Positions 546 through 9,562 of a stretch of DNA of 19,269 nucleotides are shown here, piece by piece. Position 1 is the first letter of the stretch. Each line of letters starts with the position of its first letter. Below the pieces are notes generated by a model. It did not search any database. It worked only from the letters and a program-made list of their open reading frames with translations, and was not told the DNA's origin. This stretch comes from a virus (Duplodnaviria; Heunggongvirae; Uroviricota; Caudoviricetes): positions 1 to 19,269 of the IMG/VR virus record IMGVR_UViG_3300029186_000016; one strand, given 5' to 3'. The position numbers were made by a program, and so were the translations under genes.

Positions 546-1292
546 ATGAAAAATATCGCGGCAGGTGGTGTTCTTGAGCGTATCCGTAAGCTGACCCCGC
601 AGCATGTAATCGCGCCGTACCGGACAGTGGATGAGTGGCGCGAGTGGCAACTGGCTGAAGGGCGAAAACGTAGCGAGGAGATCAACCGCCAGAATCGCCA
701 GTTGCGGGTGGAAAAAATCCTGAATCGTTCGGGCATCCAGCCTCTGCACAGCAAATGCTCGTTTGCGAATTATCAGGTGCAGAACGACGGGCAAAAACAT
801 GCGCTGAGCCAGGCAAAATCCATCGCTGACGAACTGATGACCGGGTGCACGAATTTTGTGTTCAGCGGTAAGCCGGGTACCGGAAAGAACCACCTTGCAG
901 CCGCCATTGGCAATCATCTTCTGGCGAAAGGTCGCAGCGTGATTGTGATAACGGTGGCTGATGTGATGCTGGCGTTACACAACAGCTACGACAATAAAAA
1001 CTCAGGCGAAAAATTTTTACAGGGGTTGTGTGATGTTGACCTGCTTGTCCTGGATGAAATCGGAATGCAGCGGGATACGCGCAACGAGCAGGTCACACTG
1101 AACCAGATAGTCGACCGCAGAACTGCTTCGATGCGTAGTGTCGGAATGCTGACGAACCTGAACCACGTAGCGATGAGTACGCTTCTTGGCGAGCGTGTGA
1201 TGGACCGCATGGTCATGAACGGTGGTCGCTGGGTGAATTTTAACTGGGAGAGCTGGCGTTCGAATGTCAGACACCTGAGGGTTGTGAAGTAA
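546..1292 (+). CDS. DnaC/IstB-like AAA+ helicase loader
   Basis: Walker A GKPGTGKN and Walker B DLLVLDEIG are readable in the 248-aa translation. Sits immediately after the putative initiator gene. Confidence 0.85.
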   Translation: MKNIAAGGVLERIRKLTPQHVIAPYRTVDEWREWQLAEGRKRSEEINRQNRQLRVEKILNRSGIQPLHSKCSFANYQVQNDGQKHALSQAKSIADELMTGCTNFVFSGKPGTGKNHLAAAIGNHLLAKGRSVIVITVADVMLALHNSYDNKNSGEKFLQGLCDVDLLVLDEIGMQRDTRNEQVTLNQIVDRRTASMRSVGMLTNLNHVAMSTLLGERVMDRMVMNGGRWVNFNWESWRSNVRHLRVVK

Positions 1293-1306
1293 TTTCAGGA
1301 GGACTT

Positions 1307-1723
1307 ATGGTAAAAGTTTTTACTCCCGAACAACGGGAAGAAGTAAAGGCGCGTATTGTGGAACTGGTACGCAGAGATGGTAGGAAAACGCGTAAACAAC
1401 TGGAAAATGAAACAGGGGCGACGAGACATCTGATTGAAGTTCTGGCGAAAGAACTGGTAGACCGTGGTGTTGTATATGGTTCAGGGCATGGAATATTCCC
1501 TTCTGAGCAGGTACGTAAAGACTGGATAAAAGCCCATAAAGAGATGTCTAAAGGTGCAGCGAAAAAGAAGAGCGACCCTGGCCTGATTTATTCATTACCA
1601 GATGGAGAGATACGCCACTACGACAGGCGTCAGAACATAATCTGTCTCGAGTGCCAGAAAAGCAAGGTTATGCAGCGTGTGCTGGCATTTTATCAGGGTA
1701 ATTTTCAGGAGGTGATGGCGTGA
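1307..1723 (+). CDS. Hypothetical nin-region protein (138 aa)
   Basis: Long ORF with AGGAGG-type SD upstream (caggaggacttATG). Its stop overlaps the next start (GTGA). Basic N-terminus may bind nucleic acid; function unknown. Confidence 0.6.
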   Translation: MVKVFTPEQREEVKARIVELVRRDGRKTRKQLENETGATRHLIEVLAKELVDRGVVYGSGHGIFPSEQVRKDWIKAHKEMSKGAAKKKSDPGLIYSLPDGEIRHYDRRQNIICLECQKSKVMQRVLAFYQGNFQEVMA

Positions 1724-2016: not shown

Positions 2017-2474
2017 GAGAGGTTAACTATGAGGCGCTTCGTGAGGCAGCACAAAACTATCAGTCGACGCTGGCGTGGTATCAGGCTATCCCGGACAGCC
2101 CAAATGCTGAACGGGATTGTGATGCGGCTCTTGCTGCGTTTAAGCGTCACATCCGTCATCGGGAAGCGGATATTATCGCTGATTTGCTGGATGGGCTGGA
2201 AGAAGCAAAATCACAACTCAACGAGCAGCGTGAGTATTACGAAGGCGTTATCTCTGATGGGAGCAAGCGTATTGCTGAACTGGAAGCGCGGGAAGTTCAA
2301 TTACCGACTCGCTACGACCTTCGATATGGACACCCGATAAATGCAGATGAGCGACATGTCATGATACCTAAAGAAAATGGCAGTTGGCTTTACCTGATTG
2401 ACCTAGAACACGCATTACGCGTCGCTGGCATTCGCATCAAAGGAGAGGAGCATGGAAATAAAACCAGAGGATGA
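2013..2474 (+). CDS. Hypothetical phage protein (153 aa)
   Basis: ATGA start/stop overlap with the upstream gene and same-strand operon context. No motif recognised. Confidence 0.55.
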   Translation: MREVNYEALREAAQNYQSTLAWYQAIPDSPNAERDCDAALAAFKRHIRHREADIIADLLDGLEEAKSQLNEQREYYEGVISDGSKRIAELEAREVQLPTRYDLRYGHPINADERHVMIPKENGSWLYLIDLEHALRVAGIRIKGEEHGNKTRG

Positions 2475-2808
2475 GTTAAGCAATATCGTTTTATTTCCGG
2501 TAAAAGAGGATGACCCTCGTAATCAGGTTAATTTTCTTTATGAGCCATCGGAAAGACCATATTGTCATCACGCCTCTGTCCGGGTTGACGAAAAAGAGCG
2601 TCAGGTCCGCTGTAAAATCTGCGGTGCAGTTGTGGAGCCATTTGACTGGATGCTCTCTGTGGCGAAAAGAGAAACCAGACTGGCAGATGATGTAAGGCTC
2701 TTGCGTCAGGAGGAGCGGGAAAGGCGAAAAAATATAGAAAAGCTAATTCAGATTGAGCGTAACGCGAAAGCGCGGATACGCAGGGCGACAAAATCCAGAA
2801 CTGAATAA
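2452..2808 (+). CDS. Hypothetical protein with putative zinc-ribbon (118 aa)
   Basis: Cys/His cluster C-HH...C-x2-C and a highly basic C-terminus. Overlaps the upstream gene by 23 nt. Confidence 0.5.
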   Translation: MEIKPEDELSNIVLFPVKEDDPRNQVNFLYEPSERPYCHHASVRVDEKERQVRCKICGAVVEPFDWMLSVAKRETRLADDVRLLRQEERERRKNIEKLIQIERNAKARIRRATKSRTE

Positions 2809-2878
2809 TTAAATTTAGCTCTGTTAAAAATTTAATCCTTAACCGGAGGGATTTCTGCACCCTCAGAACATCAGGAGG

Positions 2879-2894
2879 CCGCCCGAAAGGGCGG
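2879..2894 (+). promoter_or_regulatory. GNRA-tetraloop hairpin (CCGCCC-GAAA-GGGCGG) between the Shine-Dalgarno and the start codon of the 2902 gene
   Basis: Perfect 6-bp GC stem with a GAAA loop, directly 3' of AGGAGG (2873-2878) and 7 nt 5' of ATG 2902. Confidence 0.6.
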
Positions 2895-2901
2895 TAGTTA
2901 A

Positions 2902-3084
2902 ATGCGAAAGTTTAAAATAATTATTGAAACGGGAATAGCCGGTGGAGATTTCGAGGATGAATTCGAAGTGGATGATGATGCGACGCCTGATGAAATACAT
3001 GACGAAGCAAAAGATATTTTCTTTAACTACTGCAATTACTCATATCACGAAATAAAAGACGAAGAGGAAGAACAAAATGGCTGA
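2902..3084 (+). CDS. Small highly acidic protein (60 aa)
   Basis: ORF with AGGAGG SD separated from the ATG by the hairpin. Asp/Glu-rich composition. Its stop overlaps the next start (ATGGCTGA). Confidence 0.55.
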   Translation: MRKFKIIIETGIAGGDFEDEFEVDDDATPDEIHDEAKDIFFNYCNYSYHEIKDEEEEQNG

Positions 3085-3253
3085 TTTTGGTTCAACTAAA
3101 TACAACGTCAGTTTTGAAGAATGGCATGAACTGTTAATGGACTATGCAGAGTTACGTGGTGGCAGTGCTGCTGATGCTGAAGCATGGCGTGATGATTATG
3201 AAGCAGGAAAAACTCCGGTCGAAGCATATTGTGATGAGTGGGGCGATGAATGA
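3077..3253 (+). CDS. Small acidic protein (58 aa), missing from the ORF track because it is under 60 aa
   Basis: Hand-translated: MADFGSTKYNVSFEEWHELLMDYAELRGGSAADAEAWRDDYEAGKTPVEAYCDEWGDE. Its start overlaps the upstream stop and its stop overlaps the downstream ATG (ATGA), so it fills the gap between two coupled genes exactly. Confidence 0.5.
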   Translation: MADFGSTKYNVSFEEWHELLMDYAELRGGSAADAEAWRDDYEAGKTPVEAYCDEWGDE

Positions 3254-3765
3254 GCGAGATTAATTATCAGGAAGGGCATGAAACGGCAGGGCAGGCAAAA
3301 CCAGTTGCATGGCGATATCGCTACGTGAAAAAAGACGTTACAGACTTTCAGGGGAAGCCGTGGGCTGGTGACTGGAAATATGTACCGACAAAAGAGGATT
3401 GTAACGACAGGCCGAACTATGAAATTCAGGCCTTATTCATCGGCTCGCCAGTCCCGGTGACATCAGAAGGACTGGTTAAAGCCGTGCGCTTTTATGAACA
3501 GGTAAAGCGTGAGAATCCGCCAGTCGAAACAGGAGCATGGAAGGATGCTGTTGACTGGGTGCTCAGAGAGGCCTGCTGCGCTGCCATTCTGGGTAAAGCT
3601 GACAATCCACCAGCATCCGGCAATCAGGTTAGCGAATTAACAATGTGGGTTAAACGACTGGTCAGTCAACTGAAAAAAGCTCAGCCGGACTGCAAATTAC
3701 CGGAGAAGGCGATGGATTACCTGAAACGAAATGGACTGATAAGCGTGGAGGATGTTTTACGATGA
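3250..3765 (+). CDS. Hypothetical phage protein (171 aa)
   Basis: Translationally coupled to the upstream small ORF. No motif recognised. Confidence 0.55.
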   Translation: MSEINYQEGHETAGQAKPVAWRYRYVKKDVTDFQGKPWAGDWKYVPTKEDCNDRPNYEIQALFIGSPVPVTSEGLVKAVRFYEQVKRENPPVETGAWKDAVDWVLREACCAAILGKADNPPASGNQVSELTMWVKRLVSQLKKAQPDCKLPEKAMDYLKRNGLISVEDVLR

Positions 3766-4148: not shown

Positions 4149-4219
4149 AACTGCGGGTGCTTGAGGCTATCTGTCTCAGGCATGAACACCAAAAGGCAGA
4201 TAGAGAAAAGCCCCAGTTA

Positions 4220-4276
4220 ACATTACGCGTCCTGCAAGACGCTTAACATTAATCTGAGGCCCAATCTATGTCTCAC
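4220..4276 (-). ncRNA. Candidate Sok-like antisense RNA
   Basis: Minus-strand promoter-like hexamers inside the mok 5' end (-35 TTGCCT = plus 4306-4311, 17-bp spacer, -10 TAACCT = plus 4283-4288) would start a transcript about 9 nt into mok running antisense to the leader, as in known hok/sok loci. Contains hairpin GCGTC-n6-GACGC (plus 4227-4242). No clear U-tract terminator, so ends are uncertain. Confidence 0.3.
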
Positions 4277-4480
4277 AAATGTAGGTTAGCCTCTTACGTG
4301 CCGAAAGGCAAGGAGAAGCAGGCTATGAAGCAGCAAAAGGCGATGTTAATCGCCCTGATCGTCATCTGTTTAACCGTCATAGTGACGGCACTGGTAACGA
4401 GGAAAGACCTCTGCGAGGTACGAATCCGAACCGGCCAGATGGAGGTTGCTGTTTTCGTAGACTACGAATCTAGAGAGTAA
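4268..4480 (+). CDS. mok: mok-like reading frame (in-frame N-terminal extension of hok, 70 aa)
   Basis: ORF begins 57 nt upstream of the hok ATG in the same frame, as I recall for the chromosomal mokC/hokC and mokB/hokB pairs. Confidence 0.45.
   Translation: MSHKCRLASYVPKGKEKQAMKQQKAMLIALIVICLTVIVTALVTRKDLCEVRIRTGQMEVAVFVDYESRE
4325..4480 (+). CDS. hok: Hok/Gef-family type I toxin (51 aa)
   Basis: MKQQKAMLIALIVICLTVIVTALVTRKDLCEVRIRTGQMEVAVFVDYESRE has one N-terminal TM helix and the conserved RKDLCEV...EVA...YES signature of Hok/Gef/RelF proteins. GGAG SD upstream. Confidence 0.85.
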   Translation: MKQQKAMLIALIVICLTVIVTALVTRKDLCEVRIRTGQMEVAVFVDYESRE

Positions 4481-9041: not shown

Positions 9042-9117
9042 GGCCCTTTAGCTCAGTGGTGAGAGCGAGCGACTCATAATCGCCAGGTCGCTGGTTCAAA
9101 TCCAGCAAGGGCCACCA
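9042..9117 (+). tRNA. ileZ: tRNA with anticodon CAU; resembles tRNA-Ile2 (lysidine type), though Met cannot be excluded from the anticodon alone
   Basis: Cloverleaf folded by hand: acceptor GGCCCTT/AAGGGCC, D-stem GCTC/GAGC, anticodon loop CTCATAA, T-loop TTCAAAT, encoded CCA. Sequence resembles E. coli ileX as I recall it. Confidence 0.8.
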
Positions 9118-9124
9118 TCACATA

Positions 9125-9201
9125 CCGCCATTAGCTCATCAGGATAGAGCGCCAGCCTTCGAAGCTGGTTGCGCGGGGTTCGAGTCCTCGATGGCGGTCC
9201 A
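9125..9201 (+). tRNA. argN: tRNA-Arg (anticodon UCG)
   Basis: Cloverleaf folded by hand: acceptor CCGCCAT/ATGGCGG (unusual C1:G72), D-stem GCTC/GAGC, anticodon stem CCAGC/GCTGG with loop CTTCGAA, T-loop TTCGAGT, encoded CCA. Confidence 0.75.
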
Positions 9202-9214
9202 TTATCTGTACCCT

Positions 9215-9291
9215 GCGTTGTTAGCTCAGCCGGACAGAGCAATTGCCTTCTAAGCAATCGGTCACTGGTTCGAATCCAGTACAACGCGCCA
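9215..9291 (+). tRNA. argO: tRNA-Arg (anticodon UCU)
   Basis: Cloverleaf folded by hand: acceptor GCGTTGT/ACAACGC, D-stem GCTC/GAGC, anticodon stem ATTGC/GCAAT with loop CTTCTAA, T-loop TTCGAAT, encoded CCA. Confidence 0.85.
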
Positions 9292-9305
9292 CACTTATTT
9301 TCCCT

Positions 9306-9331
9306 GGCTCGCTTTTGCGGGCCTTTTTTTT
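9306..9331 (+). terminator. Rho-independent terminator after the tRNA trio
   Basis: GGCTCGC-TTTT-GCGGGCC stem (one G-U pair) followed by T8. Confidence 0.7.
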
Positions 9332-9526
9332 AAATGTCTCACAATTCAGACGGTTGACTGTTGTCTGGTTGGCGGGGAGTTTGTTAAAAGAAACTGGCAT
9401 GGTGAATCCCCCTGTGCGGAGGGGCAATCAGCGAGTAGGTATATGGGATAATCGCGGATTCAGGTGCTGGTACTGAATTCACCGGGAGGCACCCGGCACC
9501 ATGCAATGGCACATAGCGCCACTCTC

Positions 9527-9562
9527 CAGCCCCTCTCCGGAGGGGCTGTTTATATTGATTTT
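9527..9562 (+). terminator. Strong GC hairpin plus T-rich tract (plus-strand terminator; also lies 3' of the minus-strand ORF)
   Basis: Perfect 9-bp stem CAGCCCCTC-TCCG-GAGGGGCTG followed by TTTATATTGATTTT. Confidence 0.65.

What the first reader, a model, noticed from the sequence alone, without database searches (positions are those of the whole stretch)
2843..2904. Structured ribosome-binding site: GNRA hairpin inserted between the SD and the start codon
AGGAGG (2873-2878) is 23 nt from ATG 2902, too far for normal initiation. The intervening 16 nt form a perfect CCGCCC-GAAA-GGGCGG hairpin (2879-2894), and folding it leaves an effective spacing of about 7 nt. This resembles the hairpin-bridged initiation sites described for phage T4 genes such as gene 38 (established knowledge). 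It implies structure-dependent and possibly temperature- or helicase-sensitive translation of the acidic 60-aa protein and the coupled 58-aa ORF. A weaker hairpin GAGGG-n9-CCCTC lies at 2846-2864.
Basis: partly seen in the sequence, partly recalled or inferred. Interest (0 to 1): 0.5.

Follow-up and report, generated by a model that had tools for sequence, protein, structure and literature searches.

The report
Portable hairpin-bridged ribosome-binding cassette
A strong ribosome-binding sequence in an E. coli prophage sits 23 bases from its start codon, and a very stable RNA hairpin appears to bridge the gap; the same small unit is reused in front of at least five unrelated phage genes and occurs in 44% of complete E. 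coli genomes, making it a second natural example of a design so far shown only in phage T4.

Summary
AGGAGG lies at 2873-2878. A perfect CCGCCC-GAAA-GGGCGG hairpin lies at 2879-2894. UAGUUAA follows, then ATG 2902, which opens a 60-aa DUF7167 gene. A weaker hairpin lies at 2846-2864.

The feature is not specific to this gene. It is the 3' end of a conserved intergenic cassette of lambdoid prophages, found at 3222 places in 2379 of 5426 complete E. coli genomes. The cassette links at least 10 upstream gene families to at least five unrelated downstream families. In every family the start codon lies 6-11 nt after the hairpin, and most of them have no Shine-Dalgarno (SD) sequence of their own.

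Hairpin variation is mostly C>U in the 5' arm, which keeps G.U pairs. The 3' arm is nearly invariant. DUF4014 genes carry either this cassette (6 nt from hairpin to ATG) or an ordinary AAGGAG-6 nt-GTG site.

I read the T4 gene 38 site directly and it has the same anatomy.

Best explanation: a constitutive hairpin-bridged ("split") SD, analogous to T4 but not homologous. The hairpin (-12 to -14 kcal/mol) is too stable to sense temperature.

Formal covariation cannot be shown because the copies are too similar. Function has not been tested experimentally.

The parts
2452..2808 (+). Upstream 118-aa ORF (weak zinc-ribbon match). Its stop TAA at 2806-2808 lies 94 nt before ATG 2902, so there is no direct translational coupling into the cassette.
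   Evidence: This is the commonest upstream partner (family U0, 57 of 167 instances).
2809..2833 (+). AT-rich leader (ATTAAATTTAGCTCTGTTAAAAATTT). It is conserved only in some contexts and is replaced by unrelated sequence in others.
2834..2844 (+). Conserved block AATCCTTAACC (CCTTAA is invariant). It marks the left edge of the core shared by all full-length copies. UCCU 2836-2839 can pair weakly with AGGA 2873-2876.
2846..2864 (+). Hairpin 1, GAGGG-n9-CCCUC (about -6 to -7 kcal/mol). Its 5' arm, GGAGG(G), is itself SD-like. In ArgO145-type phages it serves as the ordinary SD of an inserted 70-aa gene. Its 3' arm CCCUC would otherwise be able to pair with the true SD.
   Evidence: It is absent from the 28 contigs whose copies consist of SD plus hairpin only, so it is dispensable for the unit.
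2873..2878 (+). Shine-Dalgarno AGGAGG. The predicted duplex with the 16S 3' end is -10.3 kcal/mol. It abuts the stem directly. The GGAG core is unpaired with probability about 0.32.
   Evidence: Variants GGGAGG, CGGAGG and AGGAGA all keep GGAG.
2879..2894 (+). Hairpin 2, the clamp: CCGCCC-GAAA-GGGCGG with a GNRA tetraloop. It extends to 2878-2895 if the G.U pair forms.
2895..2901 (+). A/U-rich spacer UAGUUAA. It gives an effective SD-to-start distance of 7 nt and contains the in-frame stop TAA 2899-2901.
   Evidence: Spacers in other families are 6, 8, 9 and 11 nt.
2902..3084 (+). 60-aa acidic protein of Pfam family DUF7167. This is the gene served by the cassette in this window.
3077..3253 (+). 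58-aa ORF. It overlaps the DUF7167 stop (ATGGCTGA) and has its own ordinary GAGGAA 8-9 nt upstream. It is probably coupled.
3250..3765 (+). 171-aa ORF whose start overlaps the previous stop (ATGA). It is the third gene of the coupled block.

Best explanation
The element is the business end of a roughly 60-95-nt portable intercistronic cassette found in the early accessory regions of lambdoid (Rac-like and Stx-type) prophages. The cassette supplies a complete translation initiation region to whichever gene is joined to it.

Proposed mechanism:
1. In the mRNA the GC-rich GNRA hairpin folds at once and stays folded. This step is predicted by calculation.
2. The hairpin loops out 16 nt, so the strong SD AGGAGG, which abuts the base of the stem, comes within an effective 6-11 nt of the AUG. 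This geometry can be read from the sequence.
3. The 30S subunit pairs with the SD and places the AUG in the P site while the hairpin protrudes, as was shown experimentally for T4 genes 38 and 25. For this element the step is inferred by analogy.
4. Because the SD touches the stem, the SD/anti-SD helix may stack coaxially on it. This is inference only.
5. Hairpin 1 ties up a CCCUC that could otherwise mask the SD. This is predicted, and it is dispensable.

The device is constitutive, not a thermosensor. It is an analogue of the T4 sites, not a homologue.
For: 1. Anatomy and stability are as described.

2. The unit is portable. SD plus hairpin precedes DUF7167 (7 nt to ATG), DUF4014 (6), a group starting MTELTK/MAELTK/MQEIKE (8-9), a Q-like antiterminator protein PF06530 (11) and a 43-aa ORF (8). 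It sits behind at least 10 upstream families, in more than 20 pairings. All distances fall in the functional SD window.

3. These joints leave too little room for a gene's own SD. Only the 11-nt spacer carries one (GGAG). The best alternative SD-like site, GGGCGGU at -6.6 kcal/mol, is locked inside the stem.

4. In 28 contigs of ArgO145-type phages the SD-hairpin-spacer unit occurs without the upstream half, 4 nt after the stop of another gene. It is therefore the self-sufficient core.

5. There is a natural swap. DUF4014 genes have either the cassette with a 6-nt spacer or an ordinary AAGGAG-AGUGAU-GUG site.

6. The substitution pattern points to RNA-level constraint. In copies located without reference to the hairpin, 103 of 116 are fully paired. 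There are 38 C>U changes in the 5' arm, all giving G.U, against 3 G>A changes in the 3' arm. One pair is compensated (CCACCC/GGGUGG). Among DUF7167 copies, diversity in the 3' arm (0.022) and loop (0.053) is at or below that of codon positions 1-2 (0.05). Diversity in the 5' arm (0.15) matches third codon positions (0.148).

7. The start codon position is kept. The Pfam DUF7167 and DUF4014 profiles begin at these ATGs, and seven contigs carry an ATG>GTG change at the same position.

8. There is a direct precedent. The T4 gene 38 site read here has the same design. A review reports reductions from 22 to 5 nt (gene 38) and 27 to 11 nt (gene 25), and loss of translation when the stem is destabilised (PMC3014915).

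9. No promoter-like or terminator-like site and no Rfam family explains the region.
Against: - There is no experimental evidence for this element.
- Copies are about 90% identical per column, so formal covariation is not significant. Shuffles match the observed pairing, and only one pair is changed on both sides. A covariance-model search of 1.07 Mb found no diverged copies. Conservation could therefore largely reflect recent spread.
- The C>U versus G>A asymmetry rests on few independent mutations: 10 versus 2 changes counted once per distinct hairpin sequence.
- Thirteen of 116 copies have one or two mismatches. A diverged Salmonella copy (AAGAGG-CCGCCC-GAAA-GGAUGG) still precedes an intact DUF4014 gene. 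A perfect stem is therefore not indispensable.
- Standard thermodynamic views treat a stable structure inside the ribosome footprint as inhibitory.
- The SD core is predicted to be only about 30% accessible.
- Three orphan copies have no start codon after the hairpin.
Confidence: 0.62

Rival explanations
1. The element is only a recombination linker. On this view the conserved intergenic segment persists because it provides shared homology at which lambdoid phages swap neighbouring genes (the classical modular-evolution idea, from established knowledge). The hairpin would then be incidental, neutral or even mildly inhibitory to translation. This explanation can also be true alongside the main one.
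For: The cassette sits at mosaic joints between at least 10 upstream and at least 5 downstream families. Homology ends at or just after the hairpin, also in an orphan copy joined to a convergent foreign gene. Copies are nearly identical and occur up to 7 times per genome. Covariation is not significant.
Against: This view does not explain three things: why the joints lie 6-11 nt from start codons that lack their own SD, why a strong SD always abuts the stem, and why changes concentrate on G.U-compatible positions of one arm. Genes joined this way would go untranslated unless the cassette's SD works across the hairpin.
Confidence: 0.15
2. The hairpin is a protein-binding operator. A phage or host RNA-binding protein would recognise the GNRA hairpin next to the SD in order to repress or time translation. 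One variant is a boxB-like site for an N-type antiterminator.
For: The top of the stem, GCCC-GAAA-GGGC, resembles lambda boxB GCCCU-GAAAA-AGGGC (from memory, not tested). The loop is nearly invariant (diversity 0.053). The position next to the SD is typical of translational operators such as those of T4 RegA.
Against: The cassette occurs in phages of different immunity and antiterminator types and at several places per genome, deep inside operons. The loop is a tetraloop, not a pentaloop. There is no boxA at the usual distance. Loop variants UAAA, AAAA and GGCA exist. No candidate binding protein co-occurs consistently.
Confidence: 0.07
3. The hairpin is an RNA stability, processing or transcription-pausing element. 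It would protect the upstream or downstream mRNA segment from exonucleases or RNase E. Alternatively it would act as a nascent-RNA pause hairpin that halts RNA polymerase near the start codon. On this view its position next to the SD is secondary.
For: Very stable GC hairpins capped by tetraloops are common stabilisers (established knowledge). The hairpin lies 8-13 nt upstream of the AUG, a distance compatible with hairpin-stabilised pausing (inference). Orphan copies sit at the end of an operon.
Against: This does not account for the fixed adjacency of a strong SD, the 6-11-nt window to start codons, or the natural swap with an ordinary ribosome-binding site. There is no U-tract and no terminator-like match on either strand.
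Confidence: 0.08
4. The hairpin is an intrinsic transcription terminator, or a chance inverted repeat.
For: In unrelated phyla the same 21-mer is the 5' half of longer terminator stems (GGAGGCCGCCC-GAAA-GGGCGGCCUCC followed by a U-run).
Against: Here the stem is followed by UAGUUAAAUG and, on the other strand, by CCUCCUGAUG. There is no U-run and no terminator-like site. One of 200 shuffles folds as well. The element recurs at 3222 places.
Confidence: 0.02

Closest known systems
Phage T4 gene 38 translation initiation region (hairpin-bridged SD)
   Same: A strong SD abuts a 6-8-bp GC-rich stem capped by an ultra-stable tetraloop, followed by a short A/U-rich spacer and AUG. The raw distance of 22-23 nt is reduced to 5-7 nt. 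Predicted hairpin stability is similar: -13.0 kcal/mol for T4 against -12.4 to -14.4 here (PMC3014915).
   Different: There is no sequence homology (UUCG loop and AGGGGC stem in T4; GAAA loop and CCGCCC stem here). The T4 site belongs to one gene of a virulent phage. This one is a mobile cassette serving at least five gene families in temperate prophages. The T4 site has mutational proof; this one has none.
[quoted passage not shown]
   Same: An intercistronic site where a structure shortens 27 nt to 11 nt. It is conserved among close relatives only, and it enhances rather than represses initiation (PMC3014915).
   Different: I did not read the gene 25 sequence here. That site is tied to one gene junction, and its conservation was shown over 38 T4-related phages. 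Here the spread is across different genes rather than across diverged orthologues.
Lambda nut-site boxB hairpin
   Same: A short GC stem with a GNRA-type loop in a lambdoid early transcript. The stem top GCCC/GGGC is alike (from memory).
   Different: This loop is a tetraloop, not a pentaloop. There is no boxA at the proper distance. Copies are not promoter-proximal and there are several per genome. The hairpin is followed at a fixed distance by start codons.
Module-boundary 'linker' homologies of lambdoid phages (modular evolution theory)
   Same: A conserved short sequence at gene boundaries flanked by interchangeable genes.
   Different: Linkers were proposed as recombination substrates without a defined RNA function. 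This one carries a complete SD-hairpin-spacer initiation region.
Engineered insulated ribosome-binding parts (bicistronic designs, hairpin insulators) in synthetic biology
   Same: A fixed upstream part intended to give translation initiation that is independent of the downstream gene (from general knowledge).
   Different: This element is natural. The mechanism differs, and insulation was not tested here.

Membership tests
Hairpin-bridged (split) Shine-Dalgarno initiation region, T4 gene 38/25 type | A strong SD lies too far from the start codon for ordinary initiation (more than about 15 nt). | tested here: met
   AGGAGG is 23 nt from ATG 2902. The predicted duplex with the 16S 3' end is -10.3 kcal/mol.
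Hairpin-bridged (split) Shine-Dalgarno initiation region, T4 gene 38/25 type | The intervening sequence forms a stable local hairpin that leaves the SD and the AUG outside it. | tested here: met
   The hairpin is -12.4 to -14.4 kcal/mol. The arms are unpaired with probability 0.0002. The GGAG core is about 0.32 unpaired. Only G2878 is drawn into the stem.
Hairpin-bridged (split) Shine-Dalgarno initiation region, T4 gene 38/25 type | The effective SD-to-start distance after folding falls within the functional range (T4: 5 and 11 nt). | tested here: met
   The distance is 7 nt here and 6, 8, 9 or 11 nt in the other gene families. The ordinary site of DUF4014 homologues has 6 nt.
Hairpin-bridged (split) Shine-Dalgarno initiation region, T4 gene 38/25 type | No competing SD lies at the ordinary distance. 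| tested here: met
   The best alternative is GGGCGGU (-6.6 kcal/mol), which lies inside the stem. The spacers are A/U-rich. The exception is the Q-like family, whose 11-nt spacer carries GGAG.
Hairpin-bridged (split) Shine-Dalgarno initiation region, T4 gene 38/25 type | The structure is conserved among relatives, with base-pair covariation. | tested here: inconclusive
   97% of cells are paired, one pair is compensated, and G.U-compatible changes dominate (38 against 3). However, shuffles reach the observed values, and no diverged copies were found.
Hairpin-bridged (split) Shine-Dalgarno initiation region, T4 gene 38/25 type | Stem-destabilising mutations lower translation and compensatory mutations restore it. 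| not testable with these tools
   This needs reporter fusions or toeprinting. It has been shown for T4 only (PMC3014915).
Hairpin-bridged (split) Shine-Dalgarno initiation region, T4 gene 38/25 type | Common descent with the T4 elements. | tested here: not met
   The stems, loops and flanks are different. The resemblance is one of design, so this is an analogue.
Intrinsic (Rho-independent) terminator | A GC-rich stem-loop is followed directly by a U-run. | tested here: not met
   There is no U-run on either strand, and no terminator-like site in 2300-3400.
Lambdoid nut site (boxA plus boxB) | A boxB stem with a five-base GNRA-like loop, a boxA about 8 nt upstream, and one promoter-proximal site per early operon. 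| tested here: not met
   The loop has four bases on a 6-7-bp stem. By eye there is only a 7-of-10 resemblance to boxA, about 35 nt upstream. There are up to 7 copies per genome in mid-operon positions, and some copies lack the upstream half.
Any curated RNA family (Rfam 15) | A match to a covariance model at or near the gathering score. | tested here: not met
   Nothing matches at the site. The best chance-level hit has E = 1.4.

The most novel reading that the evidence does not exclude
The cassette may be a natural, context-independent 'plug-in' translation start. The clamp hairpin would fix the geometry of the SD and keep it from pairing with whatever coding sequence follows, so that any gene recombined in at its start codon is expressed at once. 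The same conserved 60-95 nt would serve as the homology at which lambdoid prophages shuffle accessory genes. One small RNA device would then underlie both the expression and the exchange of accessory genes in nearly half of E. coli genomes.
Probability: 0.3. Interest if true: 0.6.

Novelty: new member of a known kind. Interest (0 to 1): 0.45.

Why it matters
Hairpin-bridged SD sites are textbook curiosities known from two genes of phage T4. If this element works the same way, the design arose independently in temperate phages. It would also be common (3222 copies in 5426 complete E. coli genomes) and reusable in front of unrelated genes.

This has three practical consequences:
- Gene finders and initiation-rate calculators that penalise structure between the SD and the start, or that require 5-10 nt linear spacing, would mis-score these genes. 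Some DUF7167 gene calls are already wrongly extended through the hairpin.
- It offers a compact natural part for gene expression design.
- It gives a concrete, testable example of a functional sequence sitting exactly at the mosaic joints of lambdoid phages.

Tried and rejected
- Rfam at gathering and permissive thresholds found nothing at the site.
- The promoter and terminator scan found nothing in the intergenic region.
- A scan of one genome per species with the SD-hairpin 21-mer gave 41 hits. Only three are the element (Shigella, Citrobacter braakii, and a small contig filed under Collinsella). The rest are unrelated long terminator stems, so the element is confined to enterobacterial prophages.
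- E. coli K-12 Rac lacks it, so K-12 ribosome-profiling data cannot be used.
- I looked for diverged relatives that could supply covariation. DUF7167 is restricted to E. coli and always carries the cassette. The covariance model found no new copies.
- I considered a small upstream ORF running through the hairpin. It has no usable start codon, only an ATT directly after GGAGGG, so I rejected it.
- Using the 3' arm GGGCGGU as the real SD would require melting a hairpin of -12 kcal/mol or more, so I rejected it.
- The thermosensor idea is rejected on predicted stability.
- A switch in which CCUC 2861-2864 masks the SD is about 6 kcal/mol worse than hairpin 1 plus hairpin 2. It is also absent from the SD-hairpin-only copies.
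- Literature searches by sequence, by DUF7167 and by topic found no description of this element. The prophage Pas and STnc100 sRNAs lie elsewhere, in the late region.
- Caveat on sampling: the second viral scan required an intact 3' arm. The asymmetry figures I quote therefore come only from copies located without reference to the hairpin.

Full report
**Observation**

I read window 2400-3500. AGGAGG lies at 2873-2878. CCGCCC-GAAA-GGGCGG lies at 2879-2894. UAGUUAA lies at 2895-2901. The ATG at 2902 opens a 60-aa ORF (2902..3084).

The 46 nt around the site fold at -15.9 kcal/mol against -8.5 +/- 2.3 for shuffles (1 of 200 shuffles folds as well). The hairpin alone is -12.4 kcal/mol, or -14.4 with the G2878-U2895 pair. 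In local ensemble folding its 3' arm is open with probability 0.0002. The GGAG core of the SD is open with probability about 0.32.

The start codon is secure for three reasons:
- TAA at 2899-2901 is in frame immediately upstream.
- The Pfam DUF7167 profile positions 1-60 align to residues 2-53.
- RefSeq annotates an identical copy from this ATG.

**Setting**

The window is the early region of a lambdoid (Rac-like) prophage. It holds a DnaC-like gene, DUF977, DUF4406 and an Ead/Ea22-like gene. Then comes the 118-aa ORF, the cassette, and three overlapping small genes (60, 58 and 171 aa). These are followed by hok/sok, DUF968 and RusA.

**The element is not gene-specific**

BLAST against phage records showed that the roughly 65-nt intergenic piece recurs without the flanking genes. 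I read six records and about 200 viral contigs. These show a conserved cassette running from AATCCTTAACC through hairpin 1, the SD and hairpin 2.

The cassette is joined downstream to:
- DUF7167, with 7 nt from hairpin to ATG;
- DUF4014, with 6 nt;
- a group of proteins starting MTELTK, MAELTK or MQEIKE, with 8-9 nt;
- a Q-like antiterminator protein (PF06530), with 11 nt;
- a 43-aa ORF, with 8 nt.

It is joined upstream to at least 10 different gene families, in more than 20 pairings. It occurs at 3222 places in 2379 of 5426 complete E. coli genomes, up to 7 per genome. Outside E. coli and Shigella I found it only in Salmonella and Citrobacter.

In ArgO145-type Stx phages a 70-aa gene sits between the two halves of the cassette. 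That gene uses the GGAGG of the 5' half as an ordinary SD. Its stop codon lies 4 nt before AGGAGG-hairpin-UAGUUAA-AUG (28 contigs). The SD-hairpin-spacer unit is therefore the self-sufficient core, and hairpin 1 is dispensable.

**Is the architecture otherwise common?**

It is not. I scanned 1.52 Mb of these phage contigs on both strands for an SD, then a perfect hairpin, then an ATG 4-12 nt later, then an ORF of at least 40 codons. The scan returned only this cassette and one probable chance hit.

**Evidence that the cassette's SD is used across the hairpin**

1. Every downstream family starts 6-11 nt after the stem. That is inside the functional SD-to-start window and too short to hold an SD of the gene's own. 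Only the 11-nt spacer contains one (GGAG).
2. The best alternative SD-like site is GGGCGGU (-6.6 kcal/mol, against -10.3 for AGGAGG), and it is locked in the stem.
3. There is a natural swap. DUF4014 genes in E. albertii and in some E. coli have an ordinary AAGGAG-AGUGAU-GUG site, with 6 nt of spacing. This equals the 6 nt that follow the hairpin in the cassette-served copies.
4. The start position is maintained. Pfam profiles begin at these ATGs, and seven contigs carry ATG>GTG at the same place.

**Evidence for RNA-level constraint on the stem**

I took only copies located without reference to hairpin 2: 116 copies with 16 distinct hairpin sequences. Of these, 103 are fully paired. There are 38 C>U changes at four positions of the 5' arm, all of which give G.U pairs. 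There are 3 G>A changes in the 3' arm, which give C.A mismatches. One pair changed on both sides, CCACCC/GGGUGG.

Among unique DUF7167 copies, per-site diversity is:
- 0.022 in the 3' arm;
- 0.053 in the loop;
- 0.15 in the 5' arm;
- 0.05 at codon positions 1-2;
- 0.148 at codon position 3.

G>A changes are frequent at unpaired positions of the cassette, so the asymmetry is not simply a mutational bias.

This evidence is suggestive and not conclusive. Independent events are few: 10 versus 2 changes counted once per distinct hairpin sequence. The formal pair count on 58 unique sequences does not exceed the shuffles. A covariance model found no diverged copies in 1.07 Mb. Some copies with one or two mismatches, including a diverged Salmonella copy, still precede intact genes.

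**Comparison with the known kind**

A review of T4 post-transcriptional control covers genes 38 and 25. It states that an RNA structure between the SD and the AUG reduces 22 nt to 5 and 27 nt to 11. It also states that destabilising mutations lower initiation, and that the gene 25 arrangement is conserved among close T-even phages (PMC3014915).

I fetched T4 and read the gene 38 site: AAGGAG, then AGGGGC-UUCG-GCCCUU, then CUAAAU, then AUG. The hairpin is -13.0 kcal/mol. The design is the same as here: a strong SD abutting a GC stem with an ultra-stable tetraloop, a short A/U spacer, and then the AUG. The sequences are unrelated, so this is an analogue, not a homologue.

The hairpin is predicted to remain folded to about 90 C, and it does not sequester the SD core. 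Temperature sensing is therefore unlikely. The element would be a constitutive clamp. It is also a shared cassette, not a property of the DUF7167 gene.

**Rivals**

- A pure recombination-linker role fits the mosaic joints and may well coexist with the main explanation. It does not explain the SD adjacency, the 6-11-nt window or the one-armed substitution pattern.
- A protein operator or boxB-like site is disfavoured by the tetraloop, the missing boxA, the multiple mid-operon copies in phages of different types, and the loop variants.
- A terminator is excluded by the absence of a U-run. In other phyla the same 21-mer does form the first half of longer terminator stems.
- Stability or pausing roles cannot be excluded with these tools.

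**Verdict**

The most likely function is a hairpin-bridged SD that serves as a portable initiation region (confidence about 0.6). This makes it a new member of a known but rare kind. No paper in the searchable library describes it. Reporter mutagenesis, toeprinting or initiation-site profiling would settle the question.

Noticed in passing
window 4155-4480: A hok/sok-type type I toxin-antitoxin locus. There is a sok RNA match at 4155-4330 (120 bits) and a Hok-like ORF at 4268..4480. RefSeq annotates it as hokD in an identical prophage.
   Followed up: partly
window 9042-9557: A prophage tRNA cluster: Met(cat) 9042-9117, Arg(tcg) 9125-9201 and Arg(tct) 9215-9291. It is followed by the sRNA STnc100 at 9368-9557 (133 bits). 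A 2026 preprint relates STnc100 to the PasD prophage sRNAs.
   Followed up: partly
window 3077-3084 and 3250-3253: Two start/stop overlaps, ATGGCTGA and ATGA, chain the 60-, 58- and 171-aa ORFs. The cassette therefore probably drives a three-gene coupled block.
   Followed up: partly
proteins P0002-P0006 and P0009; corresponds to window 2821-2901: Many database gene calls for DUF7167 are 84-93 aa long. In copies with the spacer TAGTGAA or TAATGAA the reading frame stays open through the hairpin, and gene finders extend the N-terminus. The window's TAGTTAA spacer has an in-frame TAA, which shows the extension is not real.
   Followed up: partly
L150 (Citrobacter braakii) 1250-1330, minus strand; also L052: These are orphan cassettes with no start codon after the hairpin. 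In L150 a foreign convergent 184-aa membrane-protein gene is joined about 10 nt after the 3' edge of the stem. The loop is AAAA in the two viral-contig orphans.
   Followed up: partly
L004 (phage ArgO145) 2596-2900, minus strand: A 70-aa gene (gp16-like) is inserted between the cassette's 5' half and the SD-hairpin. It uses the GGAGG of the 5' half as an ordinary SD (7 nt to ATG). This 70-aa gene plus the SD-hairpin also precedes DUF4014 in other contigs.
   Followed up: partly
L286 and L287 (Salmonella) 555-603: A diverged copy, AAGAGG-CCGCCC-GAAA-GGATGG-TAATGA-ATG, has one mismatch and one G.U pair in the stem. It lies before an intact DUF4014 gene and downstream of a TraM-like activator gene.
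   Followed up: no
L002 (phage Rac-SA53) 1594-2359: An IS1 is inserted about 29 nt after the hairpin, inside the 43-aa ORF served by the cassette.
   Followed up: no
L126-L166 (diverse phyla): The exact 21-mer GGAGGCCGCCCGAAAGGGCGG recurs in Acidobacteria, Chloroflexi, Alphaproteobacteria and others. There it forms the first half and loop of longer stems (…GGGCGGCCTCC followed by a T-run), which are typical terminators. This is convergence on a GC stem with a GAAA loop, not homology.
   Followed up: partly
database names for DUF4014 proteins P0085, P0127, P0166 and P0181: Some DUF4014 proteins, one of the families served by the cassette, are named 'sugar / O-polysaccharide acetyltransferase inhibitor' by their source records. 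I did not check the origin of these names.
   Followed up: no
L004 (phage ArgO145) 940-1305: An HNH endonuclease gene lies two genes downstream of a cassette copy. I did not examine whether homing-type endonucleases contribute to the sharp mosaic joints at the cassette.
   Followed up: no
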